DNA from: Azolla caroliniana
Lineage: Eukaryota; Plantae; Polypodiophyta
NCBI GenBank assembly: GCA_043228905.1
Contig: JBHGNT010000008.1
Coordinates: forward strand, 6,200,001-6,264,000
Reading direction: 5' to 3'
DNA length: 64,000 bases
Translations under genes and position numbers: made by a program
The notes under the pieces: generated by a model
Told to the model about the DNA's origin: nothing
Seen by the model: only the letters and a program-made list of their open reading frames with translations
The model's database searches: none
In this document: positions 4,101-63,873 of the stretch, piece after piece
Numbering within the stretch: position 1 is the stretch's first letter
Layout of the letters: every line of letters starts with the position of its first letter

Positions 4101-5854
4101 GAATCCAAATGAAGAAATGTTACTAAAGGCACTTATTGATCATTCTAAAATAGGGAGGGAAGGAGGAGACACACACAATCTATGTATCTGATCTCTGTTT
4201 TTTGTTTGATATATTATTCATCCCCCTTATCTACATATCTGATCTCTGTTTTTTGTTTTTATATATGTAATAATGTATGTATTACTATTCCCCCCCCTCC
4301 CATGATGATCATGAATTCATCACTTTTACTACCAATGTGATGGGGATCCATTGTTCAGATAGATTTGCAGATGTGTAGTTGTGTCGAGTCATGTCATGTC
4401 AAGATTCATCTCCATCTCCATCTCCATCTTTGGTCGAGAAAGTAAGTATGTAACTCCCCTCATGCTCTACCTTCCATATGGCTCAAGTTCTTCCCCAACT
4501 TAACAACTTTGTGTTCGGCTTCCTAGAGTTTTCCCTTCTCACTCGAATGACTCTCTTTCTCTCTATTTTTTTTGTAATTAGCTTATCCTAGTGATAAGTT
4601 GTTACACTACTAGCACTACGTCTTGGGTTCGAAACCCAATTTTCTCACTTCTTCACTAGATGCCACTGTGGAATGTAGGGGTTGAACCCATGACTCTCTC
4701 TCTCTCTCACCCACTTGTGTTTTGCTCCGTTGAGGTTTACCTTCTTTAGCTCCAAATGTTCAAGTCCAATTGTTTTGGTTGTGGGTTTTTTTCCTTGTCC
4801 TTTAAAATGTCCCCGAGTTTGCATCTCGAAACTCGCTTGATTTTGTTTCGTGTAGTTTTTAACCTGTATGGATGAGATCCATCTATCTAGTATCTCTCTC
4901 TCTCTCTCTCTCTCTCCCCTTTAAAGGGATGAAAAGGTTTCCCTCTCTCTAGTTGTCCCTTCCAAGGGACCCCAAATGCCTCTTTATCTATCTAACTTAA
5001 TGGGGTTGTCCCTTCCGAATGATTGCACATTTTTCTCCTTTGTATCTTTTATAATGGGCTTGTTCCTTCTAATGGGGTCTCTCTCTCTCTCTCTCTCTCT
5101 CATCTAGTGCACAAATATATTCTAGTTTGGACACATATATGGTCTCTAATTAAGCATTTGATTGTCCTTAAGAAAATTCTACGAATCACATGTGCTATGT
5201 CTCATGAGACTTACTTGTAATGTTTTTCTAGATTCCATAGGTCTATAGCATATAGGGCTTCCATGGATGTAAACAATATATCTACCTATCTATCTCTGAG
5301 ACAAACATGCAAGGTGGAGCATTTGATGCATGCAAAATTTCAAAGCACTTAAGGGGACAAACCCTACCAATCTTTGAGGATCAAATTACTATGAGGATTC
5401 ATCCTCTTTAAAGTTCTGCATGTAATACCAACCTTGAGAGGGGATAATTTATTATTTGCAAGAAAGATATACTTACCAAGGTAAAACCAGAATTTTTTTA
5501 TGGTTCAACTTTTAGTTCTCTCGTAGGTAGAAAATTTAAGATTAAATTGTCAATCATCATCCTACACGCAACATGGTACTTCTTTGCCAACGAAAGTATT
5601 CATGTCTCCACTACTCTTGCATTTAAATGGAAATGAAGGTGTCAAGTTTGAATTCAATAGTATAGTGAATGCTAGCTTGGTAACTTGGTAATGGTTCAAA
5701 GTGTTATTTCATTACTACACATGCACATTATGGCATCAAAACCATGTGAACCATTGGATATGTTATGCTTGGTGATCGATACTTTGCTTTCCATATTTGG
5801 AGAGTAGTTATTTAGAATAAATGGTAGAAGAAACATAGAGAGATTGGTGATTAG

Positions 5855-6159
5855 TGGGAATCGTCACCAACTCAACTCAAGCCTAAAACGAACCGTTAAA
5901 CCATTTTTAAACAGTTTGGAGGTTTTGTGGTTTGGTTTAGGCTTGAGCTTCCTTAACTGATTTGAGATCGGTTTGGGATGGCTCAAGCCGAACCGAATTG
6001 TTTTGGACTAAACCGGATCCCAAATTGGTTAAGGATTAATTAGTTTGGATAAATCGGTTCCTAAACCAGGTTATGCTTAACCGGTTTGGGAGCTGGTTCA
6101 ATTCAAGTTTGAAAACTCCCAAACTGGTCAAGTTGAAACCGAACCGTTGTCAATTCCTA
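5855..6159. mobile_element. Non-autonomous hAT-type MITE (~305 bp)
   Basis: Perfect 8-bp direct repeat GTGATTAG at 5847-5854 and 6160-6167; degenerate TIRs (tgggaatcgtcacc vs rc taggaattgacaac); many AACCG/CGGTT subterminal motifs. Confidence 0.7.
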
Positions 6160-6788: not shown

Positions 6789-9700
6789 TGTGCGGAATAG
6801 TGCTCGGCCACAACCGAGTCTTAATCACTCAATGGAAGAAACAAAACAGAAGTGAAGATCAATGCACTTACACAGAAGGAGATGACCCCAGTTGTTAACG
6901 TGGAAAACCCTAATCGGGAAAAACCATGGGAGCCCACAGACTCCAACTATCACTAAAAGAAGAAAGATACAATGGGAGACTCGAAGGCAACAACCTCAAG
7001 CTCTGTCTTCGCCAATCGACAATTACAACAGAAAATCTTTCTGTTTCTCTTTCTCTCTCTCTCTCTCTCTTGTGTCTCTGTACAACAATATCTCTACACA
7101 CATTATAGTATTGCCCTAAGTCATATTTATACTTATATGACTTTAGGACTATTTACAAATATGGCCATGACAGGCACACTAGAAACATATTTACAGATAT
7201 GTCCCTAGATCCGATTCACATTGAATCCATTCGGATCCATCTGGTCCAGTTCTTTCCTTCGGCTCGTCTGATTCGTTGCATCCGGATCCCATTCGGAGGG
7301 ACCAAATTCCCAACAAACTCCCCCTTCACTTCGACATGGGATGTCTTGCCAATCCGATCCATCTCCTGCACGCGTCTAGCTTGTCGGCTATAAACACCTC
7401 GGTCAACATGTCTGACCCGTTCTCCTCTGTGTGGATCTTCAATATCGCGAAATCTTGATCTTCCACTCTCTCCCGAAGCCAGTGGTATCTACGCTGGATG
7501 TGCTTCGTCCTAGAGTAGTACGCCGCGTTCTTTGCAAGGTGGATGACACTTTGACTATCGTAGTAGAACCGGAATTCCTCCTCCTAGATCCGTAGCTCTT
7601 TGATGAAGTCCTTCATCCAGATTACCTCTTTATCGGCTTCTACGGACGCCATGTACTCTGCTTCCGTTGTCGATAATGCAACGGACTTCTACAGCCTCGA
7701 CTGCCACGATACGGCCCCCCCTGCATATGTCATAACATATCCGGAAGTTGACCGACTGGTATCCGCATTAGCCGACATATCCGAATCCGTGAATCCTTCA
7801 AGTTGGGGTTTCCTGGAGCCGAATCGGAGGCACATACTCGAGGTGCCTTTCAAGTACCGGAGTATCCACTTGACCATTGTCTAGTGTTCTCTCCCTGGAT
7901 TGCTCATGAACCGGCTAACCACTCCGACTACATATCCGACATCCAGCCAGGTACACACAATTGCGTACATCAAGCTTCCAACGGCGGAGGCATATGGTAT
8001 CTTCATCATTTCTGACTTCTCTGTCTTGGACTCTAGACTTTGCTTTTCGAATAGCTTGCATGCTGGAAGTGTCGACCGAACTGGCATTGCATCCTTCATG
8101 TTGAACTGTTGAAGCACCTTTGTCATGCACTTTCTTGTGACAGCCTCAATACCTTCTTCGTCCGGTCTCGGACTATGTGCATCCCCAATATCTGTCTCAC
8201 CGAATTCAGATCTTTTATTGAGAGGGTTTGGTTCAAGGCCTTCTTCAGATTTCCGATTTTGATCTGGTTCGGTCTGACGATCAACATATCGTCTACATAC
8301 AATAGTAGTATCAGGAAGTCTCCTCCGTCGAAATTCTTCACAAATACACAGTGATAAGCTTGTGTCTTATGGTATCCTTGGTCAGTCATGAAGGAGTTGA
8401 ACTTCCAATACCATTGCTAGGGAGCTTGCTTCAGTCCATATAAGCTCTTCTTCAACCGGCATACCAGGTGCTCCTTCCCTTTCTTGACAAATCCCTCTGG
8501 TTGTTGCATGTAGATCTCTTCTTCGAGGTCACGGTGCAAGAATGTCATCTTGACGTCTAGCTGCTCAACCTCGAGGTCCATGCTTGCCACAATGCTCTCA
8601 ACATAGTCCGGATGGACATCACCTTGACTGCCAGGGCAAAGATCTCGTCAAAATCCACTCATTTCTTATGTTGAAACCCCTTTACCAGGATCCGGGCTTT
8701 GTACCTTGGTGGATTTCCGACGTCTCCCGGTTTAAGCTTGTACACCAACTTGTTTCGGAGCGCTCTCTTTCCTTTCGACAACTCCGTCAATTCATATGTG
8801 TGGTTCTCATGCTGGGAATCCATCTCGTCCTGCATGGAACTTAACCACCTACGGCTGTGGGTGTCTTTCTTTGCTTCCTCGTAGCTTTCCGGCACCCCCT
8901 CATCGGTCAACATCAAATACTCTATATCTGGAAATCTCGGAGGGGGCCTTCTCTCTCTTAGAGGATATCTCCGTCCTTGGTTCTTGATCACAGGTTCCTT
9001 TGTTTGCTCTTCATCCGAATCTGATTTGGGGTCTTGTTCGGTTCCGATGTCCAATTCTTCTTCGGTCGGTTCGGGTCTTTGTCCGAATCCGGCCGGTTCA
9101 TCATGGTCCTCGTCTAACATCCGGTTTCCGATCGGATGTGTCCTAACATCTTCCAATTGATCTCCGTCAGTTGACCCGGAGTCTATTATCTTCTTCTCCG
9201 ACTCCCAGTCGGCGATGTTCTTGACTTCCATGAAGACTATGTCTCGACTTCGGAAGACCTTCTTGTCGACCAAATCCCATACCTGGTAGCCGAACTCATC
9301 ATCGCCGTATCCAATAAATATGCATGGCCGAGACTTCAGATCCAACTTTGCTCTCTTGTCCTTTGCAACATGCACGTATGCAAGACAACCGAATACCTTC
9401 AGATGTCGGTAAGACACTTTGAAGGTGTGTCTCCGTCCAAGGGTGCTCAGGGTAATATGTTAATCACGTATGTCACCGTCATCAATGCCTCAACCCAAAA
9501 CATCTTGGAAAACTTAGCATGTGCCAACATGCTCCAAACTCTCTCCATCACAGTCCGGTTCATCCATTCAATTCTAGCATCTTCGACATAGTAAATTCGA
9601 GCTGGATTCCCTTCGACTGACAATGCTCCTCAAACTGCCCCTTGTATTCTCCTCTGTTCTCCGCTTGAACCGCCTTCAGCTTCTGAGCGGTTTCCCTTTC

Positions 9701-18742: not shown

Positions 18743-20140
18743 AAAGACTTGATACAATGTGGATTTGTATACTTTACAACGTTAGGTTATTGCTTATATA
18801 CTAAGCCCTAACTATGTGGACGAGTTCACACTGGGACAGATACAAATAGGAAGGAGTAGGCCTTTTATGCTAACAAACTCCCTTGTAAAAGGACTATTCT
18901 TTCTTGCGTATACAAATATTTGGGGTTATCTCCCCCGTAAATCTAGATTGAAACAAGATTATCCTAAATTTACATTACAAGTCAGTCGGCATGTGGCCGA
19001 GTTGGCAAAGGTATAGTAAGTGTAGATATTGTTGTTCCGATTAGGTCTTACCTATTGTTCCTCGTTCGGCTTTCTTCTGCTCGGTCGCTTGTTGTAGTCC
19101 CATCTTCGTCCTTAGTGCTTCGAAGCGTAGATCTGGGAGTGACTTTGTCAGGAAATCGGCGATGTTCACCTCGGTGCTGATTTTCCAAACTTCGAGCTTC
19201 TTCTCGGTTACGAGCTTGTGGATGTGATGATACCACACCTCAATATGCTTCGTCTTTGCGTGGTAGACGGGATTGTTGATGAGATGTATTGCGCTCTGTG
19301 AGTCGCAATGGATGGTTGGCGATAGTCGATCGTTTTTGCTTGTATCTAAGAAGTCGGTGCAACCAGATCACTTCCTTTGCTGCTTCCGATGCCGCTATGT
19401 ACTCGGATTTTGTGGTAGACAGAGTCGTGCACTCTTGAAGTTTCGACCTCCATGATATTGCACCACCACCATTGGTGAAGATGTAGCCTGATGTCAATTT
19501 CCAATTATCTGTATTTCCAGCATAGTCGGAATCGGTGTAGCCTTCAACTTCGGTTGAGGTAGTCAAACTGAAAGTTAGCTGTGCTTGACGGCTTGAAGAT
19601 GTGCTTGACGGCCTCCCAATGCTTCCGTCCTAGGTTGGACATGTACCGGCTGACCACCCCTACGACATAGGCTAGGTCGGGTCGGGTCGCCACCATTACG
19701 TACATGATACTTCCTACAACTGATGCATAGGGCAACTTTCCGTTAAGCTCTCTCTCCTTGTTCGTTGAAGGAGAGTCTCTGTCCGATAGTCGGATTGACG
19801 TTGGAAGCGGTGTTGGTGCTGGCTTCACATTCTCCATGTTGAAGCACTTCAGCACCATCTAGATATAGTTAGACTGGGAGAGTCGGAGAGTCTTGATCGT
19901 CCGATTTCGCTCGATCCTCATGCCCAGTATGTGTCGGGCTTGTCCAACTTCCTTCATCGTGAACTTGTCGTAAAGGCTCCACTTCAGCTTTCCGATCTCT
20001 GCTTGATTGCTTCCTGCAATCAACATGTCGTCCAAGTTTTTGTAGTGTAATTCGTACACTACGTGAAATATGTTAAAAATATATCCGATTGTAGTACGCA
20101 TAAATAAATAAAAGAAAAATATTAAAAATATTTTAACATG

Positions 20141-20255
20141 CATAGGACAGGATTCGAACCTTGTACCTCCATGTTAACGATTTTAAGCCTTACCACAGGA
20201 TTCGAACCTTGTACCTCCATGTTAACGATTTTAAGCCTTACCACTGTACTAGCAT
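20141..20255 (-). promoter_or_regulatory. tRNA-like Pol III A/B-box cassette in the Gypsy-A 5' LTR (B-box segment duplicated, 48 bp)
   Basis: Minus strand: A box TAGTACAGTGG (20251-20241); B boxes GGTTCGAATCC (20208-20198, 20160-20150); 43-nt A-to-B offset. Confidence 0.7.
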
Positions 20256-22221
20256 AATATGAGTTTTAATGTTATACTAAACTTTATCCCATCTAAATAT
20301 TCTAGATAAGCATGATAGAAAAAGTTATTCATGCATACACACTCGAGTTAAAAGAAAAGATGTTATAGATAGCTAATCATGCACATGTAGTGTGCATGAA
20401 AACTAAAGTTAGAAAAAGCATGATGCTTGCATGTGATAAACTTAGACTCTTCTATCACTATATAAGGAAGAGAGAAAGATGTATATGGTTGTTGATTTTT
20501 TATAAGGGTTGATTAATACAAAATATTCGTGGGATTCATGATTTTGCAATCTAATTCTCTCTTACAATCTAAGTATCAATTAATACACTATACTCGTGGG
20601 ATTCACAAGTTTCATATCTCCATCTTGCAATCTTTTCTTAACTAACAATATCTCATATTCTTCTTTCTCCTAGTCCAAAATCCCAGCGGTTCCCACCCGA
20701 CTCACGCAAACGATCTGGCGCCGAAAGGCACGACACAAGTGGTGAACCTGACGTGAAACTCGGATGGCAAGGAGATGGAAAATCAACCGGAAACTAACAA
20801 CATGATGGCGATGTTCGAGCAGATGCTACAAGAACAACGCGCGATGTCGGAGATGGCAGCAGCAGTAGAGCGGCTCGTTCAGCGGAGCGGGCAATTCAAC
20901 GGGAAGGATGTGTCACGATATTTGTGGGATTACAAGGCGGAAATGCTACGTTGCGGAATATCGGAAGGATTGCAGGTGACATCCTTCAATCGGGTGGCTA
21001 CGGACGAGATTTAAAGGAGTATCCACGGGATACGACAACAGAATCCAACGTGGGAAACATTTGAAGAAGCGCTAAAGACCACGTTCGCCATCGAGGACTC
21101 CTCCAAGGCAACGCGGAGGGGATTTGAAGATTGGGTGGAAACGCCAGACAAGGGGCTGAAGGTCCTCGATGTGTTTTCGGCATTCAAAAGTCGGTTTGGG
21201 AGGTTGTCCGCGAGATATCAAGCCATCCTCACATCGAACAAAGTGATCATGTTCTTACGAGCCGTGGATGTCCGGGACTGGAAAGATCTTGGAATGCTTC
21301 TAGAGGACACCACTACTGAGAGTGGCCTCACCAATACATGGGAAATTGTGCGGGATATCGTCGCGCGATACACAAAGAGGGGGCAATGGCTTGGTAGTGA
21401 AGAAAAGAGGGTTTCAGAACCAATTCCGAAACCAAGATCCGGATCAGAAGACCATCAACTGTGGGCTCGGGAGACTACGACCAAGAAGGGAATCGATGCA
21501 ACCACGGTGGAGTAGTTGCTAAAGGAGGTGGAGAATCTGAAAATCGCGATGGTGAAGAAGTCGGATGACCGTCCCACAAGTTCCAAGTATATGGACCGTC
21601 GATGCATATGGTGCGATAGCACCGAACATGATAGGAGGGATTGCGACGAGCACAAGGAGGCGCTACGACGGGACCTTATCTACTACGAGGGAAATCAGAT
21701 TCATTTGATGGACTCTCGGAAGCCACTCCGACCGAACTTTCGAAAAGGCGGCATGAAGACGGTCCTAAAGGAGGAAATAGCGGCAAAAAGCAATTATGTG
21801 ACAACCACGGGGATATGTGTGGGTGAGTCATCTGGAGCAAAGTCGTCTTTTTGGCGGGAAGTGCTAGAAAACCCCGAGAAAACTGACTCTAATGAGATCC
21901 AAAGCACCGCGGAAGGCATCCGAGAAGCTACGGGATGGGAGTGCCCCGTTGATAAGAATAGCGTGTACGCCCTATGCCAATTACATGAGGTGTATGTAGA
22001 TGAGAAACGACGGCGCACAAATGATGTAGTCAGACCATCAAAGATGCCAGAGAGTTGGAACTTTGAAGGGAAGGGAGTGTCATGATATGGCAAGACTTGA
22101 ACCCATGACCTTATGCTACATGGGTCGAGCTCTTACCATTAGACTATGAATTGTATTTTGTAAGATATTATTTTCATTTATGCTTTATCATAGAAAATTG
22201 ATGTATATTCCAGATCTCTTT

Positions 22222-22267
22222 GGAACATTCTAGAAGCTTCAGGATTATTCCTAAAAACACTATAAAA
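22222..22267 (+). promoter_or_regulatory. Perfect 4-unit heat-shock element plus TATA box in the Gypsy-B LTR (HSE also at 27367-27386 and 62557-62576)
   Basis: GAAcaTTCtaGAAgcTTC, about 20 nt upstream of TATAAAA (22261). Confidence 0.75.
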
Positions 22268-22573
22268 GGAGGCACAAGGCATTGTTTTGAACCAAATTGG
22301 TTCAACACCAGTCTTAAGCCTCTTAGTCGATTTGTACTTATCTTTCATATAATATAAGCGCTGCTGTCATCATCCTATTTCTCTCTCTCTCCTCTTCTCA
22401 CTTCCTCTCTCTCGGGAATCTTACGCAGTCTTGTCCTCTTAGTACTAATAGTACTACTCTTCTTAGTACTAATTCCATCTCTTCTTTAGTACTATTCCTG
22501 ACAGTTTGAACCAATTTGCTTCCTCCAACCTACTTGTTGTTCTCCCTCATCCTCCTATCCTTTTCCCCCTACT

Positions 22574-23731
22574 ATGGCTATTGTTAGCGCCTAAGAATAT
22601 CAATCCGTTTTCTCCGAGTTACAGTGCGTAAAAGAAAAGTTTGTTGCCCTGGAACAAGAAAACCAACGGCTGATAGGGGATCTGCAACAAATCGCTCTAG
22701 AAAAGCCACAAACGCAGCAACAACATGGGGAGTTAATGTTACGGGTGCAGCAACTCGAAGCGGCATTGCAACAACAAGGATCAAGTCCCCAAGGATTTCA
22801 TAAAGAGCCGAAGATTGGACTTCCTGTGAAATTTGATGGAACGTGATCACAATTCAGGGGATTCCTTAATCAGATACGATTAGTCCTCCAAATGCATCCT
22901 TCCCGATACCCCACTGATGCATCCCGAGTCGGTTTAATAGGCACGTTGCTTAGCGGCTTAGCCTTAGCATGGTTCGCTCCGCTTCTAGAAAAACAATCGC
23001 CCTTGCTTAATAACTTTGAAGATTTTATTAGTGAGTTCAAAGCCTGCTTTGGAGACATCGACAACATCAGGACGGCGATCAACAAGATCCGGCAATTGCG
23101 TCAAGGCGATCGTCCAGCCTCTGCCTATGCGGCAGATTTCCGCCTACTTGCTTCCGACATACCCTGGGATGATCAAGCACTAATGGAGCAGTTTCGCTAT
23201 GGCCTGCGAAATGATGTCAAAGATCTACTTCTAACCTTCCCTGAAGAACCAAAGTCTCTTACGGAGGCAATCAGTCGAGCGGTCCGATGTGACAACCGCC
23301 TCTTCGAACGGCATTCGGAACGACAATTACAGATACCACGCGCTAGGCCGGAGCCCACTTACGCCGCAGTCGCGGCTAGACCATTTGCATGAGACATTCC
23401 TCAAGCAAATACTTCGACACCGATGGAGATCGATACCATGCATCGACGCGGCCCGTTATCGGAAGAAGAAAAGCAACAGCGACGTGCAAATCAATTATGT
23501 CTTTATTGTGGTGGACCAGGGCATATCGCAATCAATTGTCCCCATAGGCCAAGAAGACAGGTAAATCAAATTGTAGCCTGTACTAAACCCGAGTCAATTC
23601 TTCCCTTAGGAGTGTCTGATAGTATTAATAGTACTAATAGAGTGTTTGATAGTATTCATAGTACTAATAGCCCAAGTATCTCAAATAAATTTGAAATCCT
23701 TAGTCAATTAGATGAAGAGTTAAACGATTGA
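22574..23731 (+). pseudogene. Gypsy-B1 gag
   Basis: Retrotransposon-gag-type sequence (ALAWF..., LRQG..., FRYGLR), PMEID and a CCHC knuckle; premature stops. Confidence 0.9.
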
Positions 23732-26700
23732 GTCCAGCCAAAATAGGAGCCGTTTGGTTGGACAACAGCCCTAGATCTGTACAACCCATTAGTGGTTCCA
23801 TTCCTTCCAAGCAAGTTAGCAATGTGTTCCTAGCCCAAGTCATTGTTAGTACTAAAAGTACTCCCCCAGTACCCGTCCTAGCACTTTTAGATTCCGGAGC
23901 TAATTCCTGTTTCATGGATCGAAATTTTGCCCAAGCTTCTCAGATATCCTTAAGAAAACTTCCTTGTCCCGCATCTGTAGTAGTCATTGATGGTCGTCCC
24001 ATTGCTTCCGGGAATATTGTAGAAGAATTAGAACCCATTCAAGTTGTCCTAGGTAGTTTTGTGTGTGTAATATCATTTAATATAATTAGTAGTCCAGAGC
24101 ATCCCATTGTCCTAGGATTACCTTGGTTTGAATTACATAATCCAGCCATAGATTGGAGAACAAGAGAAGTCCGATATCGACCACCCCAAGAATCAACTCA
24201 CCAAGTTTCGACCATTTCACTCCATCAACTACGCGAAGAAGGACCCAAGGAGGCAATGTTCCTATTTGCAATATCAGTACATCCTTCCAGCACTATTAAG
24301 AAGGACTCCTCAGTACAACTTCCAGCAAAATATCATCCTTATGCCGATGTATTTGACAAGGTAAAAGCCGGTACCCTTCCTCATCACCGTCCCTATGATT
24401 GTCCCATCGATTTACAACCAGGAGCCGAGCCACCATGGGGACCAATTTACAACTTGTCACCCACCGAGTTAGAAGTCCTTCGAGCCTACATAGAGGAGAA
24501 CTTGGCAAGCGGGTTATTTGAGTTAGAAATCTCCGGCCGGTGCACCCATCTTCTTTGTCAAGAAGAAAGATGGCTCACTTCGTCTTGTCAAGTTTTTTAC
24601 CAAAATCGACCTATGAGGAGCGTATAATCTCGTGCGGATCCGACCGGGAGATGAGTGGAAGACCGCCTTTCGCACGCGGTATGGGCATTTCGAGTATATT
24701 GTTATGCCGTTTGGCCTAACCAATGCACCCGCAGTCTTCCAACACATGGCAAATGATATATTCAGAGACCTCTTGGATATCTGTTTGATCATTTATCTGG
24801 ATGATCTGTTGATTTATTCGAAGACCCAGGAAGAGCACGATTCTCATGTACTATTAGTACTAAAGCGACTCCGCGAGAATGGTCTTTATGCCAAGCTAGA
24901 AAAATGTAGCTTTGACTGCAAGCAAGTGGAATTTCTAGGCTACGTCATCTCCTCAAAGGGCATCACCATGGATCCAGCTAAAATCCAAAGTGTACTCGAT
25001 TGGCAAATTCCACGGTCGGTACGAGATGTACAATGTTTTCTAGGTTTTGCTAACTTCTACCGTAAGTTTATACAGGATTATTCGAAGATTATTTTACCTC
25101 TCACACAACTTACGAAGAAGGGCCAAGCATTTCTTTGGTCCATAGAAGCAGATATGGCTTTTCGGCATCTTAAGAAAGCCTTTACATCAGCACCGATTCT
25201 AGCTCATGTGGATACAAGCAAACCATTCATCATGGAGGCCGACGCATCAGATTTCACCCTCGGTAGCATCCTTTCTCAACAAGGCGATAAAGAAGAGTTG
25301 CATCCGGTGGCTTTCCATTCGCGCAAATTCGATGTCGCAGAAATCAACTACGAAATACATGACAAGGAGTTATTAGCCATCGTGGATTCATTTGTACAAT
25401 GGCGGCATTTCTTGGAGGGCTCTCCACATCAGGTCATTGTCTTTAGCGATCATAAAAATCTTGCTTATTTTCAGAACGCTCGTGTACTAAATCGACGGCA
25501 AGCTCGGTGGGCGCAATTCCTCACGCGTTTCGACTTCAAAATCACATATCGACCGGGGAAGCAGCAAGGAAAAGCAGATGCACTATCACGGCGTTCATAT
25601 CTTGCACCTCGTCCTGGTGACACAACATTTGATAATCAAAAGCAAGTAATCTTGGGACCAACTCGATTGCACACGACGCGGATTTTTCACACCCCGATGG
25701 ATTCACGGATTACCGATGACATACGTGCAACCTTGAAGACGGATAGTTTTGCTCAAGACATCCTGGCGCACATTGATACTTCCCGGGCATCCTGTTCTTA
25801 GTCTCAACAACTAGGTATTGACTACCAACAATTCGAATATCATGATGGTTTGTTATTCTTTAAAAAGCGCGTATATGTCCCCGATTGCTCCTGTCGCCTT
25901 CAAATCGTCCAACATTGTCATGACACCCATACGGCGGGACATTTCGGTAGTACTAAGACGTTGGAGCTAGTGCAGCGATCTTTTTGGTGGCCCCACATGC
26001 GCCGTTTTGTCGACGACTACGTTCAGACCTGTGATGCTTGCTGCCGAGCAAAGATGCCACGACACCATCCATATGGCTTGTTGGAACCTTTACCGATTCC
26101 AAGTAAGCCATGGCAGTCTATTTGTCTTGATTTTATCATAGATCTGCCGGTCTCGAAGGGGTTCGATGCTATCCTAACCGTCATCGATCGATATACGAAG
26201 ATGGCACATTTTTTGCCATGTACTAAAGCCATCACTAGCGAGGAAACCGTCGTTCTTGTTATGCGTGAGGTATTTCGGCATCATGGCCTCCCAGACAGTA
26301 TTATCAGTGACCAAGGCCCGCAATTTGTCTCCAAACTTTGGCAGCATCTCTTCAAGATGCTCAAGGTCTCCTGCAACCGCTCCTCTGGCTACCATCCTCA
26401 GACCGACGGACAGGTGGAACTAACAAACCAAACGTTGGAGCAATATCTCCGGTGTTTCCTGAGTTATCAACAGGACGATTGGGCCGAGATTCTCCACTTT
26501 GCGGAGTTTGCGTATAATAATGCTATTCACTCCTCGGCTCGGGTCTCCCCATTTTTCGCTTATACCGGTTTCCATCCTCGCTGGTCGGTGATCGACACTC
26601 CAGAGCTACCTACCAACCCTCGTGCCGAGGATCATTTGGAGAGGCTACGCAAGATCTAGATGGATCTCTCTACTCATCTTCGTCATGCTCAACACACACA

Positions 26701-27181
26701 GAAGACTTATGTGGATCGTCATCAGATTCCCTCCTCTTTTGCCATAGGAGATCGAGTATGGCTCTTACGTCGTCACATCAAGACTACTCGACCGTGCGAC
26801 AAGTTGGATTATCGACGACTCGGTCCTTTCCGTATTACGGGGAAGATTAATGATGTCACCTTCTGCCGTGATCTCCCTCCGCAGCTTTAGATACATCCGG
26901 TTTTCCATTGTTCTCTTCTTGAACCTTATAAAGCAAACACCATTCCCGATCGTGTGACACCACCGCAGCCCCCGCTGGAGTTGGACGCCGGCCCGGAGTA
27001 TGAAGTTGCTGCCATCCTCGATTCCAAACTTGTTTGCAACAAACTTTATTATTTGGTCAATTGGCTCGGTTATAGTCCGAGCGAACGTACTTGGGAACTC
27101 GTCGAGCATGTTGCCAATGCACAAGATCTTCTTGCTGATGATTTCCACCGAAAGTATCCGGACAAACCCGGTCCGCAATGA
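23719..27181 (+). pseudogene. Gypsy-B1 pol (PR-RT-RH-INT-chromodomain), -1 frame to gag
   Basis: ORFs 23728-24627, 24632-25801, 25850-26659, 26660-26890 and 26954-27181 (EYEVAAILDSK..YYLVNWLGY..TWE); short RT deletion near 24588. Confidence 0.92.
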
Positions 27182-27230
27182 GCGCCGACTCGTTCCACTC
27201 GTCGTCTATAAGGGGGAGATAGTGTCATGA

Positions 27231-27295
27231 TATGGCAAGACTCGAACCCATGACCTTATGCTACATGGGTTGAGCTCTTACCATTAGACTATGAA
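27231..27295 (-). promoter_or_regulatory. tRNA-like Pol III A/B-box cassette in the Gypsy-B LTR (also 22093-22146 and 62427-62481)
   Basis: Minus strand: A box TAGTCTAATGG (27291-27281); B box GGTTCGAGTCT (27248-27238). Confidence 0.7.
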
Positions 27296-30200
27296 TTGTA
27301 TTTTGTAGGATATTATTTTCATTTATGCTTTATCATAGAAAATTGATGTATATTCCAGATCTCTCTAGAACATTCTAGAAGCTTCAGGATTATTCCTAAA
27401 AACACTATAAAAGGAGGCACAAGGCATTGTTTTGAACCAAATTGGTTCAACACCAGTCTTAAGCCTCTTAGCCGATTTGTACTTATCTTTCATATAATAT
27501 AAGAGCTGCTGTCATCATCCTATTTCTCTCTCTCTCTCCTCTTCTCACTTCCTCTCTCTCGGGAATCTTACGTAGTCCCTTCCTCTTAGTACTAATAGTA
27601 CTACTCTTCTTAGTACTAATTCCATCTCTGCTTTAGTACTATTCCTGACAGGGGAAAGGAAAAAAATTTCCGGCATTCAAACTCACTTCGGACATCGAGC
27701 AATGAACAGACTTAAAAAAGGTGTTCGAGGAGAGAATCCTCGATAGCTGGGTAAATTTTTCGCTTTGGGAATTACTCGGAATAGCGAAGGAGTTCCACGA
27801 TCTTCTTGTGGATCTCGTGAAGAGAAAAAGACAAAATACGGAGGAAAATGCTCCAAGGGTGAATGCAAATACCGTTCTAATGAATGACACCGAAGTGGAG
27901 GATGAAATTCCGAACTCCCACTACACAAGGCCACATTGGGCACGCGCAACTATGGAGACTCTGGTCCGAATCGGAAAAATCAAGGAGCCTGCACTAGCAT
28001 TGATAGATCACGGATCAAAGATCAATTTGATGTCCAAGGAGTTCTACCGAAAGGGGAAGTGGCCTATTAACACTAGTCATGGATAGAAGATCCGGGCAAC
28101 CACTAAAACAACAAAAGATTTATTTGCGGCTTGTCCGGATGTGATGGTGAAGATCAGAGATGTGGAGATTGACCAAAATTTCTTTGTGCAAGATGAGGTC
28201 TCACAGTCCGTGATCCTCAGACAAAACTTTATCACGACTTCATGGATGGAGACAAAGGTGCTCGATAGTGGAACGGCTTTTGCATGAATTCGGAGCCAAA
28301 ATGGAGGGAAAACCATCCAATTCCTAACCGTGCCATCAAATCACGAAAGGAACAAGAGAGATCTCTTGTCCCAAACAAAAATGGATTTTTAAAGCAAACT
28401 GTTGTAGAGTGGGGAAGTGATAGTCTGAGAAGCCCTGATACCCCACACAGGAAGAAACCTCTCGGAGCAAAATAAGTACGAATCGGTTCGGATGGGGCAT
28501 CTACATACACGGCCGTAACCGGAGTAATGAAGAAAGAATTCCGAAAGGTGCAAGATGAGTTACAGTCTGCATCAATAATAAAAGAAGACGAAGAAATCGT
28601 GGGAGTAGTCGAAGAAGTGTTCTATGGGAGCACGCTACAACGGCTTGAAGAAACTTCACAGATGAGACCCGGAAGAAACTTCGGATCGGTGGAGGTGGGT
28701 TCCTTTCACAAAACGAAGAAGAACAGTTTTGTGAGATGTTGGAGCAGCATGGAAGAGCGTTTGCATTCACATCGAAAGAGATAGGGTGTGCTGACCCGAG
28801 CCGATGGTGATCTTCACGATTGATCATGTGCCGTGGAACCTAAAGCCAATTCCGGTGCCACGGGCGCATATTCCAAAAATCATTGACTTGCTCAAGGAGA
28901 AGGTGGTGATGGGGATTCTAGAGCCATCAAACGCTCCGTACTCAAATCGATGGTTTACGATTCCGAAGAAGAATGGGTCACTCTGATTTATTCAAGATTT
29001 GCAACCGGTGAACAAGGTCACGATCCTAGATGACATTCCGATAAAAGGATGTGTGGTGGAAGAAAAAGATGAGACTATGGATGATCGGGGATGCCGAAAG
29101 TTCGTAGTCAACCATATTCGTGATTGCGAGAAAGTGTTACGGAAGTTAGAAGATGTGCACCTAACGCTCTTCGAGAGAAGTTGGCATTCAAACAAGAAGA
29201 AATATTGGTAGTCAGACATCTATGTGGACCCTACGGCTGAAGACCGTTGCCGGTCAAGATCGATGCGATTCAAGTTATGAAAGAAATATGCATGTCACAA
29301 TCCGAAGGCTGTAGATTTCTTGGGGCATGTGCATTCTATCACATATGGATTCCACACTATGCACACATTGCGGACCCACTCTATCACTTGTTGCAGAAGG
29401 GGAAGAAGTTCGAATGGAGACCGGAACATACCAAAGCCGTGAAGAAGCTCAAGAAATCACTACAGAGGGTAGAAGCACTTAGGAAGCTGAACTATGACCG
29501 ACCGATTATAGTAACGGTTGATACAAGCCCAACTGGGATCGAATGGGTCATCAATCAAGCCGATTCGGATGGTTCATGATATCCGATCCAATTCGGAGCA
29601 AAGGTTCTCAATGAAAGGCAACGCGGATATGCACAAGTTAAAAGAGAATTATGGGCAGTCGTGTCAGTGATAAAATCAGATCGAGATTACTTGATTGGAG
29701 CCGAAGTGGTGATTGAAACAGATTGTCTTCCGATACTTGGGATGATACGGTGTTGCACGATACCAGATGTGGCTATGCTAAGATGGATTGCATATGTAAA
29801 GTCACTCAATCCGGAGATACGACACATCTCTGAAAAAGACAACGCGGTAGTGGATATGCTATCAAGGGCACGGTTCGGAGACGACATAGCCGAATTCGAT
29901 AATGAAGAAATTTCCAAAAACTACTTTACTTCGGAGCACATATGCCGAGTGAACGTAATCCGAGAATTCCGGGAAGAAGAATATGAGGGAGAAAGCTTGT
30001 TGATCGGGAAAGTGCTACAAGAAATCGAGGAATCATCGGACAATAAAGAAAAGGGAGTTGTGATCCGAAGTAAGAAGTGGCAAGTCCAGAAGTTTTTCTT
30101 GAACAATGGATTAATCTGGAGGGAGCCGAAAAGACCGAATGGTATACCACTACGGGTAGTCGGAACAAAAGAGCAACAAAACCGGATAATGTCCGAATTT

Positions 30201-31399
30201 CACGAATCCGATTGGGCTGGACATCGGGGAACATGGGCAACATTTGCGCAGATCAAACAAAAATATTGGTGGAAGAATATGTACAAAGATGTAGCGGAGT
30301 TCACAGAAAGCTGTGAGAAATGTCAAATCTACTCCGGAGTTCGACACCGAGATGAATTACATCCGACATTATCAACCGACAATCAACTTCAAATGGATGG
30401 TCGACATTGTGGCCATGCCAACCGGGATCAGACAAAAGAAGTACTTGGTGTTAGCCTGGGAAGATCTAACAAACCAAGTAGAAGGACGGGCACTACGGAG
30501 GAAAACATGTTCCGCGGTATGCCAATTTCTCTTGGTAGAAGTGTTCTGCAGGTACAAGTGCGTCAGACAAGTAATTGCGAATCAAGGAGAACTTGACACT
30601 AATAAAGCTAGGGAATTCTTTGTCAGACATGGAGTACGGTTAACACTAACCACGACATACAATCTGGAAGCCAACGGGAAGGTCGAACAAGGACATAGTC
30701 CAATCGTCAAAGCACTTGCAAAAGCATGCGACGGAAGGGTGAAGGATTGGCCGCAGATGCTTCCGAATGCACAATGTGGGCGGATCGCACGACGCATAGT
30801 TCCGTGACCGGTTATATGCTAGCCGAACTTATGAACGGACAAGCACTGGTAATGCCGATGGAAACCGCGATTACAACATGGATAGTGCTATCGTGGAAGG
30901 AAGAAATGAGCCGGGAAGATCTACTAGCGGTCCGGATACGACAACTAGAGGGAAGACTAGAAGACATAGTGGAAGCAACACGTTGACTACAGGAAGCGCG
31001 ATTCTGGAACAAAGGTCGATTTGACACAAAGCATCGACTACGACCACAAAAGATTGAAGGAGATTGGGTGATCATCTATGACAGTAGTTTGGATCATCAA
31101 CATACAACGATACAGAAGTTTGCTAAAAGGTGGTTCGGGCCATACAAGGTTCGGAAAGTTTCCGACAACGGAACTTACCGACTATGTGAGTTGGATGGAA
31201 CAGTACTACGGGTGCCTATAGTGGGGAAACATGTGAAGATTTTCAAGAAGCGGATTGACGACGAACCTTATGTAATCTTAGAGAGGACTGACAACGAGGA
31301 GAAATCGGACAAAGATAGCGGTGATGCGGAAAGCGAAGAAAGTGGACTACAATTGATAATCGACATAAGGGGAGAATTGAGAGTGCTACGGATGAAGGT

Positions 31400-31905
31400 G
31401 AATAACAAGCATCGGGAACTTCGGCACATATCAGAGGATGTGCGGGTTCGGAGGGGGCGAGTGTCGTAGTGTAATTCGCACACTACATGAAATGTGTTAA
31501 AAATATATCCGATTGTAGTACGCATAAATAAATAAAAGAAAATATTTAAAATATTGTTACATATCCGTAGGCGAATAACAAGCATCGGGAACTTTGGCAC
31601 ATACCGGAGGATGTGCGGGTTCGGAGGGGGCGAGTGTTGTAGTGTAATTCGCACACTACGTGAAATATGTTAAAAATATATCCGATTGTAGTACGCATAA
31701 ATAAATAAAAGAAAATATTAAAAATATTGTTACATATCCGTAGGCGAATAACAAGCATCGGGAACTTCGGCACATACTGGAGGATGTGCGAGTTCGGAGG
31801 GGGCGAGTGTCGTAGTGTAATTCGTACACTACGTGAAATATGTTAAAAATATATCCGATTGTAGTACGCATAAATAAATAAAAGAATATTAAAAATATTG
31901 TTACA
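31400..31905 (+). repeat. 173-bp tandem triplication spanning the 3'UTR-PPT-LTR start of Gypsy-A
   Basis: PPT/LTR junctions at 31462, 31635 and 31808, exactly 173 bp apart. Confidence 0.92.
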
Positions 31906-32795
31906 TGCATAGGGCAAGATTCAAATCCTGTACCTCCATGTTAACGATTTTAACCCTTACCACTGTACTAGCATATTATGAGTTTTAATATTATACTAAA
32001 CTTTATCCCATGTAAATATTCTAGATAAGCATGATAGAAAAAGTTATTCATGCATACACACTCGAGTTAAAAGAAAAGATGTGATAGATAGCTAATCATG
32101 CACATGTAGTGTGCATGAAAACTAAAGTTACAAAAAGCATGATTCTTGCATGTGATAAACTTAGACTCTTCCATCACTATATAAGGAAGAGAGAAAGATG
32201 TATATGGTTGTTGATTTTTTATAAGGGTTGATTAATACAAAATATTCGTGGGATTCACGAATTTGCCATCTAATTCTCTCTTACAATCGAAGTATCAATT
32301 AATACACTATACTCGTGGGATTCACAAGTTTCATATCTCCATCTTGCAATCTTTGCTTAACTAACATTATCTCATATTCTTCTTTCTCCTAGTCCAAAAT
32401 CCCAGCGGTTCCCACCCGACTCACGCAAACGATCCGGCGCTGAAAGGCACGACAACGTATAGGATCAGATAAATCCTAGAATCGTCGGCTAGTTGCTGAA
32501 TGTACATACATGGGTCAGAGTCAAATTGGCGGTATACAAGTTTCTTGATGTAGGAGTCAAACTTCTGGTACCATATCCTCAACGCTTGTTTCAAGCTATA
32601 TAGACTTTTCTTTAACCGACATATGAGGTGACAGTCCTCCCCCGTCACCGTGAAGCCTGCTGGTTGAGACATATAGATGTGGATTTGTATACTTTACAAC
32701 ATTAGGTTATTGCTTATATACTAAGCCTCAACTATGTGGACGAGTTCACACTAGGACAGATACAAATTGGAAGGAGTCGATCTTTTATGCCAACA

Positions 32796-33049: not shown

Positions 33050-35643
33050 TGTTGAGCGAACAAGCTCAACCGGATTTGGATTGGCTGAATAACCCAGATC
33101 CGAATCGGAGTTCGGATCAAAGAACCGGATTGGTGTCCGAAACCAGGAGCCGGATCATAATCCGGATCAATATAAACTAGTAGGCCGTTTGAGGCCTACG
33201 AATCTAGCCTAGTACGTAAGCATATGGGAGTCTGTGTTAGTCCCTCGTATGAGCATTGAAGTACATGTCAATACTTCGGTCAGACCTTTGAAGGACTTGT
33301 ATAAAAAGTGTTCTATAGGACATCGTATGTATAGAATATTATTATTTTGAATTGAGTTTACTGTTCTTCTCTCTATGCCTTTCCCGCGTACTCTCTGTGT
33401 GTGACTAAGCTTTCCATTAAACCTGTGCATATTCTCTGTTGCTATACAGTGAAGCCTGTTTCATTTACAAGCTTCCACACGCTACTTTTCACATGGTATT
33501 AGAGGGCGAGTGTGAAAAACCTCTGCTGTTGACAAGCCATTTCCATAGACGAACCCTAACTTCCGAAAAAACACAGACCGAAAAGAAAAGAAATGGACAG
33601 AGGTATGGAAAGCACCGAGAAAAGTACTATGGCAAGAAAGAACATAGAGAGAGAGAGTGCTGGAGGAAGCACGCCGATTTGGATAAATCCGGATCGGCAA
33701 GGCTGGACAAGGGAATCGGCAAAGCTTGCAGTATGCCAAAGAATCAGAAGGATCGGAAACCGAAAAGAGCTGAAAAGGGCCAACCTTTGTGATGAAAATA
33801 AGGTGAACTCGATGAAGAAGACCACTTCCGGATCGTAGGAAGTGTGGTATGTTGATTCTGGAGTATCTAACCACATGACGAGCCATAGCAACCAGGAGAA
33901 ACTGGGAGTTGTTGAAACTAGAGACGACACTCCTCACCCGATTGTGCATGTCGGAGAAGTCCCCTTGAGTCATGTCAAACAAAAAGGGAAGGTTCTGATC
34001 GTGCTTCATGTCCCGACAATCAAAAGAACCCGGTGTCGGTCGGGCAGATTGTCGACCAGGGGATGCAGGTGCGGTTTACACACCTCGGGTGCTTCATTGA
34101 GGAAGAGGGCCAGATCATCGCACAAGGGCACTAGGACGGAAGGATGTTCATCCTCGACACCAATGACGTTGGCACTGCTCTATTCGCCAAAGGACAAAAA
34201 GTCGAGTCAGAGATCGACTTATGGCACAAGAGAATACGCCACGTAAACTATCAAAGGCTTCCAGATTTGCAATCGAAACATGTGGTTTTCAAATTGCCAA
34301 AATTTAGTGGCCGGAAGGCCCAAATATGTGAAGCCTGCCAGCTTGGGAAACAACACCGACTTCCATTCTCCACCAAATGAAACCGCAAACATAACAAGCT
34401 CGAATTGATACATTCGCATGTATGGGGACTGATACAAAACGTTAGTCTTGGGGGGCAACCGATATTTCGTCTCCTTCATCGATGACTACTGCTGGCACAT
34501 GTGAATCTATCTCATTGAGAAGAAAAACAAAGTCTTCGACTGTTTTCCGAACATGCAAAGTCTTATCAAATAGGAAACGGAGCAAAAGATCAAGTGCCTA
34601 TAGTTGGATGGCGGAAAAGAGTATTTTTCTAGCCAATACAACAACTATCTTCAACATAAAGGAATTCGGAGGGAATTCAGATGCTGATATACATCGGAGC
34701 AAAACAACGTTGCCAAGAGGAAGAACCGATCGATTGTGGAGGCGGCAAGGGTGATGCTTGAAGAGAAGAGCATGCCCAAGTTCTATTGGGCCAAAGCGGT
34801 TCGGACGACTGTGTACATTTAAAACCGAATTGGGGATAAGGTGTCACCACACGAGCTATATTTCGGGCGTATGCCGAATCTACCGACTCAGACCCCTGAC
34901 TCAGATCCGATTCTGGAAGATGAGACCAGTGAGCTCGAATCGATCTGGGCAGAAGAAGAAGAAGGATTCGTTACTCTAGATGAGAGCCCAATCTCATTTC
35001 GGCTAAGTGGGCTGAACGAGCGACTGAGTCGGAATGACCAGTCAAATGAAGACCCGTGCTCTCCCTGTGCAAGGTGTTAGGAAACAGGTCCCTCCGGATG
35101 GGAAGTGAGAAGGCCTCAGCCGAAACCGGATGTGGGAGACCCGGCTACGGAAGACCCTTTTACCGGCCGGCAAAGGAGTCCGGAGTGGGAAACGGAGAGC
35201 TAATTAAGTAGTAGGAATGTGGTTGTAATTAAGCTATGAGTGTGGACGGACGAACCGGAATCGGTATGCCGTTCCGGATCCGGACCGATCCCGAACAGGT
35301 GCGGATGGCACCGTTTTGTAATACAGACCAGAAACCTATTTAAAGGCCCGGATACAATGTAATAGTTAGCGGTTAATTAATGAAAGCTTAAGCGTTGTTA
35401 TATCTCTGTGTTAATTGCCGTTCTGTCTTAATTGTTATATCTTACGCGTGTTATGAAGACGATCCTAATAAGTAACTTGATTAAGTCGGATTAAGCGTTG
35501 AAGTCTAATCCGGTTGCCGTAACACCCTTTGGTGAAGTGTCTCCCGTAGACACCCTGTGTTAGGCCATTGTCCGGCCCGAAGAGTTAACACAGTTTTTGG
35601 CGACCACGATTCCTGTTTTTGTAGTGAACGACAACACGGATGG

Positions 35644-41478: not shown

Positions 41479-41556
41479 CGTCACACTAATAATAATAATA
41501 ACTGAAAAAAAGAAAAAGAAAAAAACAAAAAACAATCATGCAAAAGCGAGGAATGA

Positions 41557-62411: not shown

Positions 62412-63873
62412 TGTCATGATATGGCAAGACTCGAACCCATAAGCTTAGGTTATATGGGTCAAGCTCTTGACCATTAGACCATCTGTTGTAATACGTAGGA
62501 TATTATTTTCATTTACATTTTATTATAGGAAATTAGTGTATATTCCAGATTTCTCTGGAACATTCTAGAAGCTTCAAGATTACTCCTGAAAACACTATAA
62601 AAGAGGGCACTAGGCATTATGTTGAACCAAATTGGTTCAACGCCAGTCTTAAGCCTTGTAGCCACCATTGTATATTCTCTTCATATAATACATATCTTTC
62701 TTATCATCACTCTCTCTCTCTCTCTCGATCTCTCTCTTTCTCTCCATCTTGCTCACTCCTTCCTTCTCTCGAAGAAGTTCTACACCTCTCATAGTACTAA
62801 TCCTTTGTTTAGTACTAATTCCTTCTCTATCTCAGTACTGTTCCTGACAGTTTGAACCAATTTTCCTACCTTCTATCTCTCTCATTTCCTACTAATCTCT
62901 TATTCCTCTTTTCTTTCATCCCATGGCCACTGTTAGCGCTGAAGAATATCAATCTGTTTTCTCGGAATTTCAATGCTTGGAAGAGAAGTTCCATGCTTTG
63001 GAACAAGAAAACCAATGGTTGCTGGGAGATCTTCAACAAATCTCCTTAGAAAAGTAGCAAACGCAACAACAGCATGGGGAACTTGCGTTACGCGTGCAAC
63101 AATTCGAAGCAACCATCGTAATGATGCAACAACAAGGGCTCGGAACACAAGGGATTCATAAAGAACCCAAGATTGGCCTTCCCACGAAGTTCGATGGAAC
63201 GCGATCGCAGTTTAGAGGGTTCCTTAACCAGGTACGATTAGTTATCCAAATGCATCCTTCCCGATATCCCACCGATGCATCACGAGTGGGTTTAGTAGGC
63301 ACTTTGTTAAGTGGCTCAGCGTTGTCATGGTTCGCTCCACTATTAGAAAAGGAATCTCCGTTACTCAACAATTCTGAAGAGTTTCTAGGTGAGTTTAAAG
63401 CATGTTTCGCAGGTACTGACAGCATCAGGACCGCAATTAACAAAATTCGGCGATTACGCCAAGGTGACTGTCCAGCCTCCACATACGCTGCAGATTTTCG
63501 CCTACTCGTCACCGATATCCCTTGGGATGATCAAGCGTTGATGGAGCAATTCCGTTATGGTTTACGCAACGACGTCAAGGATTTACTCTTGACCTTCCCC
63601 GAAGAGCCAAAGTCCTTAACAGAAGCAATCAGTCGCGCGGTGAGATGTGACAACCGCCTCTTTGAGCGACGTTCGGAAAGACAGCTACAGATGCCGAGGC
63701 CAAGATCAGAGCCCACCTACGCCTCAGTGGTAGCAAGACCTTTTCCGAGGGAGTCATATAATGTGCCTCCAGCGAATACTCCGAATCCAATGGAGATTGG
63801 CACTACACGTCGTCGAGGGCCATTATTCGAAGAAGAAAAGCAGTGACGCCGTACAAATCGACTATGTCTTTAC
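62412..63873 (+). mobile_element. Gypsy-B2: second Tcn1-like chromovirus copy; 5' LTR plus gag; interrupted in the zinc knuckle
   Basis: LTR 62412-62849 homologous to 22078-22503; gag from 62923, ORF 63094-63846. Confidence 0.93.

What the first reader, a model, noticed from the sequence alone, without database searches (positions are those of the whole stretch)
20141..20255. Antisense tRNA-like Pol III cassette built into the LTR of Gypsy-A
Seen: on the minus strand near the U3 start are an A box (TAGTACAGTGG) and a consensus B box (GGTTCGAATCC) 43 nt apart, with a GAGGTAC variable-loop-like motif between them and T5 runs ~25 nt downstream. The 5' LTR has a 48-bp duplication giving two B boxes. 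The 3' LTR has the same cassette (A 31970-31960, decayed B 31927-31917), so it is part of the replicating LTR. Known: this is tRNA/SINE type-2 promoter geometry, and Cassandra TRIMs carry 5S-derived Pol III sequence in their LTRs. Inference: the LTR may make a short antisense Pol III RNA or bind TFIIIC as an insulator against silencing.
Basis: partly seen in the sequence, partly recalled or inferred. Interest (0 to 1): 0.78.

Follow-up and report, generated by a model that had tools for sequence, protein, structure and literature searches.

The report
tRNA promoter mimics in Gypsy LTRs
Two unrelated, protein-coding families of plant jumping genes carry the same backwards-facing copy of a tRNA gene's internal promoter at the outer edge of their end repeats, kept while the sequence between its two boxes changes, so it likely serves as a docking site for the cell's tRNA-gene machinery that would help shield the element's own promoter from silencing.

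Summary
A tRNA-type A box (20251-20241) and B box (20208-20198) lie antisense, 43 nt apart, in U3 of a Phygy-like Gypsy LTR that starts at 20039. 29 of 30 family LTRs carry the whole cassette, and at least 1,817 B-box-plus-flank copies exist genome-wide; the 48-bp duplication is private to this copy. The nested, unrelated chromovirus (Tcn1-like; RNase H 23% identical) has the same antisense pair at its LTR start. Between these two groups the boxes and tRNA positions 44-47 stay 78-97% identical, while spacer and flanks fall to about 30%; no cloverleaf is kept. That points to selection on replicating elements for a TFIIIC/Pol III site, most likely a promoter-protecting boundary (inferred, 0.45). 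Against: among close copies the boxes are no more conserved than flanks, inserted copies lose the B-box CpG neutrally, and no binding data exist. The closest known kind is Helenus/Cassandra (TRIMp3), which are short and non-coding; these elements are gag-pol-coding and antisense. The scan noted antisense tRNA-like units in Gypsy elements of other genomes; I found no note of this cassette in this genome.

The parts
20039..20734 (+). 5' LTR of Gypsy-A (Phygy-like non-chromovirus)
   Evidence: aligns to the 3' LTR, K2P 0.040; ends checked against 30 family copies
20241..20251 (-). A box of the tRNA-like cassette
   Evidence: sequence
20198..20208 (-). B box, 43 nt from the A box start
   Evidence: sequence
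20209..20240 (-). spacer: fast-changing anticodon-arm equivalent, then the conserved tRNA position 44-47 motif
20150..20199 (-). 48-bp tandem duplication private to this copy, with a second B box (20160-20150) but no full A box
   Evidence: 1 of 30 LTRs
20115..20128 (-). two T5 runs, candidate Pol III terminators
   Evidence: T4+ at 21-23 nt past the B box in 8 of 8 Gypsy-A-lineage subfamilies
20459..20466 (+). TATA-like box of the sense (Pol II) LTR promoter, about 210 nt downstream of the cassette (role inferred)
   Evidence: sequence
20739..20756 (+). primer-binding site, TGG-type (tRNA-Trp by recall; not matched to a fetched tRNA)
   Evidence: 13 of 30 family LTR ends carry it
31396..31914 (+). 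173-bp unit (PPT plus LTR start) repeated three times; the repeats stop before the cassette
   Evidence: family D5
31809..32454 (+). 3' LTR of Gypsy-A
31917..31970 (-). cassette in the 3' LTR: A box 31970-31960, decayed B box 31927-31917
22078..27650 (+). nested Gypsy-B, a Tcn1-like chromovirus (gag, protease, RT, RNase H, integrase, chromodomain; predicted self-priming)
   Evidence: Pfam; LTR pair K2P 0.029
22093..22146 (-). antisense A/B pair (43 nt) at the start of the Gypsy-B 5' LTR
27238..27291 (-). antisense A/B pair (43 nt) at the start of the Gypsy-B 3' LTR; folds as a hairpin, z -6.3
62427..62481 (-). antisense A/B pair (44 nt) at the LTR start of a second Tcn1-like subfamily

Best explanation
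The cassette is the A-box/B-box internal promoter of a tRNA-type gene, stripped of its cloverleaf and fixed backwards at the outer edge of U3 in two unrelated Gypsy lineages, where it likely binds TFIIIC (with or without Pol III) and would act as a boundary that keeps the element's own Pol II promoter open after insertion into silenced chromatin. Shown: presence, orientation, position between the LTR edge and the TATA box, copy number, box-over-spacer conservation between lineages, loss of tRNA folding, neutral decay in inserted copies. Inferred: capture from tRNA-derived repeats, selection acting only on replicating master copies, TFIIIC binding, boundary effect. Any short antisense RNA (about 85-90 nt to the T run in a normal Gypsy-A LTR) is taken as a by-product.
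For: (1) Spacing is locked: 18 of 19 A/B hits in a 590-kb sample chosen by position are 43-44 nt apart (shuffle mean 2.8 hits); 33 of 105 in a noisier 990-kb scan vs 5 of 129 in three shuffles. (2) LTR-first test: of 22 non-seed LTRs found by at least 140 bp of cassette-free 3' sequence, 19 have an antisense pair scoring 15 of 17 or better and 0 a sense pair. (3) Between Phygy-like and Tcn1-like groups, identity is 0.78-0.80 at A-box consensus positions, 0.91-0.97 at non-CpG B-box positions and 0.89-0.90 at positions 44-47, but 0.24-0.30 in the anticodon arm and 0.24-0.35 in flanks. Within the Gypsy-A lineage the spacer window falls to 0.57, between windows of 0.90 and 0.80. (4) The two carriers are distant: RNase H 23% identical; a chromodomain was found in B. 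(5) No tRNA fold is kept: acceptor and anticodon stems pair at 0.36 and 0.38 vs 0.96 and 0.91 in this genome's tRNAs; ARAGORN finds 0 genes and Rfam no tRNA. (6) No fixed terminator outside the Gypsy-A lineage. (7) Precedent in yeasts: tDNA barriers work in either orientation (PMC2040200, abstract) and ETC sites bind TFIIIC without polymerase and act as boundaries (PMC3395662, abstract). Moss RLG1 carries a chromodomain and sits in heterochromatic islands (PMC7466625, passages).
Against: No binding or reporter evidence could be obtained. Among 29 close copies the boxes are not more conserved than flanks in raw terms, and the B-box CpG is intact in 7 of 29 vs 19-25 at 13 other LTR CpG sites (18 of the losses are the tolerated change). 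Genome-wide, 470 of 1,817 matched B boxes carry the damaging C-to-T and 365 the tolerated G-to-A, so inserted copies appear methylated and unprotected there, which a working barrier might be expected to prevent. The 25 representatives were mostly picked by a box scan, which inflates box identity (one search is the partial control; its seeds were cassette carriers). In the Gypsy-A lineage the 10 nt past the B box are as conserved (0.97) as the box, so more than the box is constrained. Positions 44-47 are not part of the textbook boxes (recalled). The Copia LTRs and a third Gypsy (35160-44686) in the window show no such pair. My one search for TFIIIC with plant LTR retrotransposons listed nothing on plants.
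Confidence: 0.45

Rival explanations
1. The product is the RNA: Pol III makes a short antisense transcript (about 85-90 nt in Gypsy-A; read-through into the PPT region or flank in Tcn1-like LTRs) that pairs with the 3' end of the genomic RNA and tunes or decoys silencing.
For: T4+ run at 21-23 nt past the B box in 8 of 8 Gypsy-A-lineage subfamilies. The A box, needed for initiation (recalled), is kept as well as the B box. Positions 44-47, an RNA-level tRNA feature (recalled), are conserved. Cassandra's LTR Pol III promoter is transcribed (PMC10886601, introduction).
Against: No fixed terminator in the 7 group-C or 10 Tcn1-like representatives; the region is AT-rich, so T runs are cheap. The Gypsy-A cassette has no stable fold (z -0.7 and -0.4) and no compensatory pairs (0 of 14).
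Confidence: 0.2
2. Captured tRNA/SINE heads kept for another reason or none: the boxes survive because they overlap a Pol II upstream element or an RNA/ssDNA hairpin next to the PPT, or both lineages took the head from one repeat pool and it is simply decaying.
For: The Tcn1-like cassette is an inverted repeat (z -6.3 and -3.3; 3 of 19 pairs with two-sided changes) that folds on either strand. The Gypsy-A 3' half forms a possible hairpin. A short non-LTR repeat shares 74-83 bp at 86-89% with the U3 start of one Tcn1-like family, so exchange happens. Inserted copies decay neutrally. Kojima notes that 'not a few' Repbase LTRs hold tRNA-like parts (PMC10886601, section 3.1).
Against: Passive decay does not leave two boxes and exact spacing while the homologous spacer drops to 0.45-0.67 within lineages and to background between them. 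The hairpin is absent in Gypsy-A and differs between Tcn1-like subfamilies, whereas the boxes, orientation and position are shared by all.
Confidence: 0.28
3. Self-made landing pad: as yeast Ty3 targets Pol III start sites (recalled), these elements carry a Pol III promoter to attract further insertions.
For: Nested insertions into these LTRs occur (L028 inside the cassette, L142 inside U3).
Against: Only 1 of 57 loci around family LTRs holds a tRNA gene within about 1.5 kb. The two nested cases are not at the predicted start site. Gypsy-A ends follow an NCGN target rule (11 of 17).
Confidence: 0.05
4. Chance resemblance to A and B boxes.
For: None.
Against: 0 of 100,000 LTR shuffles give a strict pair; same geometry in unrelated LTR families.
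Confidence: 0.02

Closest known systems
Helenus (TRIMp3; Kojima 2024, PMC10886601; read parts 1-4 of 6: abstract, introduction, methods, results, discussion; supplements not seen)
   Same: tRNA-derived sequence inside both LTRs; conservation concentrated at boxes A and B; unlikely to be a working tRNA; PBS and PPT present; one plant case (Selaginella).
   Different: Helenus is non-coding and 311-1263 bp, and its Pol III promoter is proposed to transcribe the element; the paper argues that autonomous partners must use Pol II. Here the carriers are 5.6-6.8 kb gag-pol elements with a TATA box, the cassette faces outwards and cannot make genomic RNA, and two unrelated lineages share it. The paper says many Repbase LTRs have tRNA-like parts but analysed only short TRIMs; its text gives no orientation and does not mention Physcomitrium.
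Cassandra TRIM (via PMC10886601 and PMC12486564, passages)
   Same: Pol III internal promoter conserved inside a plant LTR, with a fold unlike the parent RNA.
   Different: 5S-derived (A, IE, C boxes), non-autonomous, and the promoter makes the element's own RNA.
tDNA barriers and ETC sites of yeasts (PMC2040200, PMC3395662; abstracts and section lists only)
   Same: A/B or B boxes acting as chromatin boundaries, independent of orientation, in some cases without polymerase. This is what the cassette is proposed to work like.
   Different: Host loci with direct binding and barrier data; here the boxes ride on a mobile element and function is untested.
Phygy and Tcn1 clades (Neumann 2019, PMC6317226, passages); P. 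patens RLG1/RLG2 (PMC7466625, passages)
   Same: Gypsy-A: no chromodomain seen, NCGN target. Gypsy-B: chromodomain, no tRNA PBS, predicted self-priming.
   Different: The passages read describe no tRNA-like LTR cassette; 'tRNA', 'SINE' and 'polymerase III' occur 0 times in PMC7466625. Supplements not seen.

Membership tests
Helenus / TRIMp3 | tRNA-like sequence with conserved A and B boxes in both LTRs | tested here: met
Helenus / TRIMp3 | short (up to about 1.3 kb), non-coding TRIM | tested here: not met
   Gypsy-A about 6.8 kb without the nested element, with RNase H and integrase domains; Gypsy-B 5.6 kb with a full gag-pol domain set
Helenus / TRIMp3 | Pol III promoter placed to transcribe the element itself | tested here: not met
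   antisense to gag-pol and PBS in 19 of 22 LTRs, sense in 0 of 22; orientation in Helenus is inferred from the paper's proposal, not stated
Helenus / TRIMp3 | PBS and PPT present | tested here: met
   Gypsy-A PBS at 20739, PPT before 31809
tRNA gene | cloverleaf with paired acceptor, D, anticodon and T stems | tested here: not met
   ARAGORN 0, no Rfam tRNA match at E up to 10, stems 0.36/0.58/0.38/0.65 paired over 25 representatives
tRNA-derived SINE | free-standing copies with tail and target duplication | tested here: inconclusive
   Gypsy-A-type cassettes in the 590-kb sample all lie in LTRs; a short non-LTR repeat shares the head of one Tcn1-like family, direction of transfer unknown
Phygy (non-chromovirus) | NCGN target preference | tested here: met
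   11 of 17 non-PBS LTR ends are followed by NCGN, 4 more differ by one transition, 2 unclear
Phygy (non-chromovirus) | placement in the Phygy clade on an RT/RH/INT tree | not testable with these tools
   no REXdb reference sequences on hand
Tcn1 (chromovirus) | chromodomain; no tRNA PBS, self-priming | tested here: met
   PF00385 E 6.5e-10; the bases after the 5' LTR are complementary to a stretch inside the LTR at 13 of 14 positions
Tcn1 (chromovirus) | placement in the Tcn1 clade on a tree | not testable with these tools
   no reference sequences on hand
TFIIIC boundary (tDNA barrier / ETC) | TFIIIC occupancy and barrier activity | not testable with these tools
   needs ChIP and a reporter

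The most novel reading that the evidence does not exclude
Two unrelated autonomous Gypsy lineages of a moss-like plant have converged on carrying a tRNA-promoter mimic at the outer edge of U3 as a built-in TFIIIC insulator: a portable anti-silencing device that also seeds the genome with thousands of TFIIIC sites, and a first sign of TFIIIC-type chromatin boundaries in plants.
Probability: 0.35. Interest if true: 0.85.

Novelty: new variant of a known kind. Interest (0 to 1): 0.64.

Why it matters
If the boxes bind TFIIIC, coding LTR retrotransposons have co-opted the tRNA-gene machinery as a cis-acting defence against silencing, something described so far only as the promoter of tiny non-coding TRIMs. 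The two carrier groups are very abundant here (4,198 and 3,508 first-look candidates), so they would add thousands of potential TFIIIC sites. They also offer a ready test of whether TFIIIC boundaries exist in plants, in a group where gene targeting is routine (recalled).

Tried and rejected
Expression: no RNA holder listed; laying three coded runs gave 0 records for two and 1,499 contigs for X1, marked probably DNA. X1 contigs cover the LTR ends and the B-box side but hardly the spacer and A box at 85% likeness; this is not used as evidence. Rfam: 4 chance matches, no tRNA. Parent tRNA: best local matches to 39 fetched tRNA sequences (a partial set) are weak; the Gypsy-A anticodon position reads as in tRNA-Asn, but its sister subfamilies do not keep it, so no parent is assigned. 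An apparent 18:4 excess of the tolerated B-box change among close copies did not hold genome-wide (365 vs 470) and is rejected as proof of protection. A PWM trained on only 7 tRNA box pairs was noisy (105 hits vs 43 per shuffle); only its spacing peak is used. One row caught a copy with a deleted B box and was replaced. In one search, 11 seed self-hits and 12 hits under 140 bp were dropped from 45 before the 19-of-22 count. Primer read-through as origin: orientation fits, but the cassette is not at the PBS and lacks a tRNA 3' end; not pursued. tRNA-gene targeting: 1 of 57 loci. A genome-wide count of all cassette families was not obtained, so the number of carrier families rests on the 990-kb sample. 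Literature: the listings of 10 searches showed no description of an antisense tRNA-type promoter in coding moss LTR elements; most subscription journals, Repbase entries and supplements were not seen and could hold one.

Full report
Observation. On the minus strand the A box lies at 20251-20241 and the B box at 20208-20198, 43 nt start to start; a second B box is at 20160-20150 and T5 runs begin at 20128 and 20119. The 3' LTR has the same cassette with a B box hit at two invariant positions. It is the only strict pair in the window, and 0 of 100,000 shuffles of the LTR gave one. ARAGORN finds no tRNA and Rfam no tRNA match.

The element. Gypsy-A runs from 20039 to 32454, with LTRs 4.0% apart (K2P), a TGG-type PBS, RNase H and integrase domains and a triplicated PPT-plus-LTR-start unit. 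Its LTR has 4,198 first-look candidates in the 523-Mb genome, of which 40 were scored. Of the 30 fetched LTRs, 29 hold the whole cassette, one has its B-box side replaced by an insertion, and only the window's 5' LTR has the 48-bp duplication. 11 of 17 non-PBS ends are followed by NCGN, the target rule given for Phygy (PMC6317226, passages). A 24-nt pattern over the B box and its flank has 1,817 exact matches (control 0). Neighbouring matches are often about 2.5-3 kb or 6.5-7 kb apart, which suggests that both short derivatives and full-size elements carry it. The clades found point to a moss-like host (inference).

It is not confined to Gypsy-A. The nested element at 22078-27650 has gag, protease, RT, RNase H, integrase and a chromodomain, no tRNA PBS and a predicted self-primer, as described for Tcn1. 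Its RNase H is 23% identical to that of Gypsy-A. Both of its LTRs, and a relative at 62412, begin with an antisense A/B pair 43-44 nt apart with a different spacer; the 30 fetched copies of this LTR, all close to the query, carry it. In 590 kb sampled by position, 18 of 19 A/B hits had 43-44 nt spacing (shuffles 2.8). Most lay antisense near the 5' end of LTRs of Gypsy-A relatives, a second Phygy-like group or Tcn1-like families. Finding LTRs first by cassette-free 3' sequence in 990 kb, 19 of 22 non-seed LTRs had an antisense pair scoring at least 15 of 17 and none a sense pair (11 seed hits and 12 short hits of 45 dropped; seeds were carriers). Copia LTRs and a third Gypsy in the window show no such pair.

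What is conserved. Over 25 representatives, identity between Phygy-like and Tcn1-like groups is 0.78-0.80 at A-box consensus positions, 0.91-0.97 at non-CpG B-box positions and 0.89-0.90 at tRNA positions 44-47, against 0.24-0.30 in the anticodon arm and 0.24-0.35 in flanks (mostly box-picked). In whole-LTR comparisons of the window's 3' LTR with six Gypsy-A-lineage subfamily copies, the spacer window (0.57) is among the lowest and sits between windows of 0.90 and 0.80. The cloverleaf is not kept: acceptor and anticodon stems pair at 0.36 and 0.38 against 0.96 and 0.91 in this genome's tRNAs. The Gypsy-A cassette has no notable fold (0 of 14 pairs with two-sided change); the Tcn1-like one is a hairpin (z -6.3; 3 of 19). 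A T4+ run sits 21-23 nt past the B box in 8 of 8 Gypsy-A-lineage subfamilies but at no fixed place in the other 17.

Results against. Among 29 close LTRs the boxes vary more than their neighbours in raw terms (0.09-0.10 vs 0.02-0.06) because of transitions; transversions alone give 0.003 vs 0.012-0.029, on small numbers. Genome-wide, the damaging CpG change is at least as common as the tolerated one (470 vs 365 of 1,817). Inserted copies therefore decay like methylated DNA, and any selection acts on the replicating masters, not on the host's copies. No binding data were available.

Mechanism. Two boxes at fixed spacing, no fold, no shared terminator, always outward-facing and always between the LTR edge and the TATA box fit a DNA-level TFIIIC site best. 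In yeasts such sites block heterochromatin in either orientation and can do so without polymerase (PMC2040200 and PMC3395662, abstracts), and moss RLG1 is described as living in heterochromatic islands (PMC7466625, passages). I put a promoter-protecting boundary at 0.45, a functional antisense Pol III RNA at 0.2, a captured head kept for another reason or none at 0.28, a landing pad at 0.05 (1 of 57 loci near a tRNA gene) and chance at 0.02. Binding and boundary are inferred. A short non-LTR repeat that shares its head with one Tcn1-like LTR shows that such heads can move between repeats; whether the two lineages gained the cassette independently or by exchange is open.

Comparison. The present elements share the box-only conservation but fail the size, coding and orientation features, so they are not members. 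That paper remarks that not a few Repbase LTRs hold tRNA-like parts without describing them, so database entries may already show this. Ten literature searches listed no description of it in coding moss elements, and four look-ups of this scan's notes on this genome or sequence showed none. Box consensus, tRNA numbering, the Trp assignment of the PBS and Ty3 targeting are recalled.

Verdict. Real, family-wide, shared by two unrelated lineages and probably under selection; function untested. New variant of a known kind; interest 0.64.

Noticed in passing
window about 4573-4710; L020:2680-2880, L118 (two copies), L148, L182: A roughly 210-bp interspersed repeat with two tRNA-like A/B heads facing each other, next to CT-rich runs; one head matches the U3 start of a Tcn1-like LTR (L133, L165, L018) at 86-89%.
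   Followed up: partly
L140 near 4330-4400, L125 near 1310-1370, L172 near 4664 and 4800: LTRs of the second Phygy-like group appear to have a further, decayed sense-strand A/B pair downstream of the TATA box (scores 14-15 of 17), which would bracket the Pol II promoter; L172 has two antisense cassettes in tandem.
   Followed up: no
window 31396-31914: The PPT plus the first 100 bases of the 3' LTR are repeated three times (173-bp unit), stopping just before the cassette.
   Followed up: no
Gypsy-A family LTRs L003-L030: The first 100 bases of U3 come in at least three types, one replaced by another repeat, while the sequence from the B-box flank onwards is shared.
   Followed up: no
L123 near 5250-6100; L140 near 8990-9190: Tcn1-like LTR pieces joined head to head as inverted repeats around the predicted self-priming palindrome.
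   Followed up: no
window 35160-44686: A young Gypsy (LTRs 98% alike) with long open frames and no A/B cassette; it may belong to the PPT-less lineage noted by earlier agents in this genome, which I did not check.
   Followed up: no
L031, L038, L039, L048, L049: Tandem arrays of tRNA-Lys(TTT), tRNA-Ile(TAT) and tRNA-Arg(TCT) genes, some degenerate.
   Followed up: no
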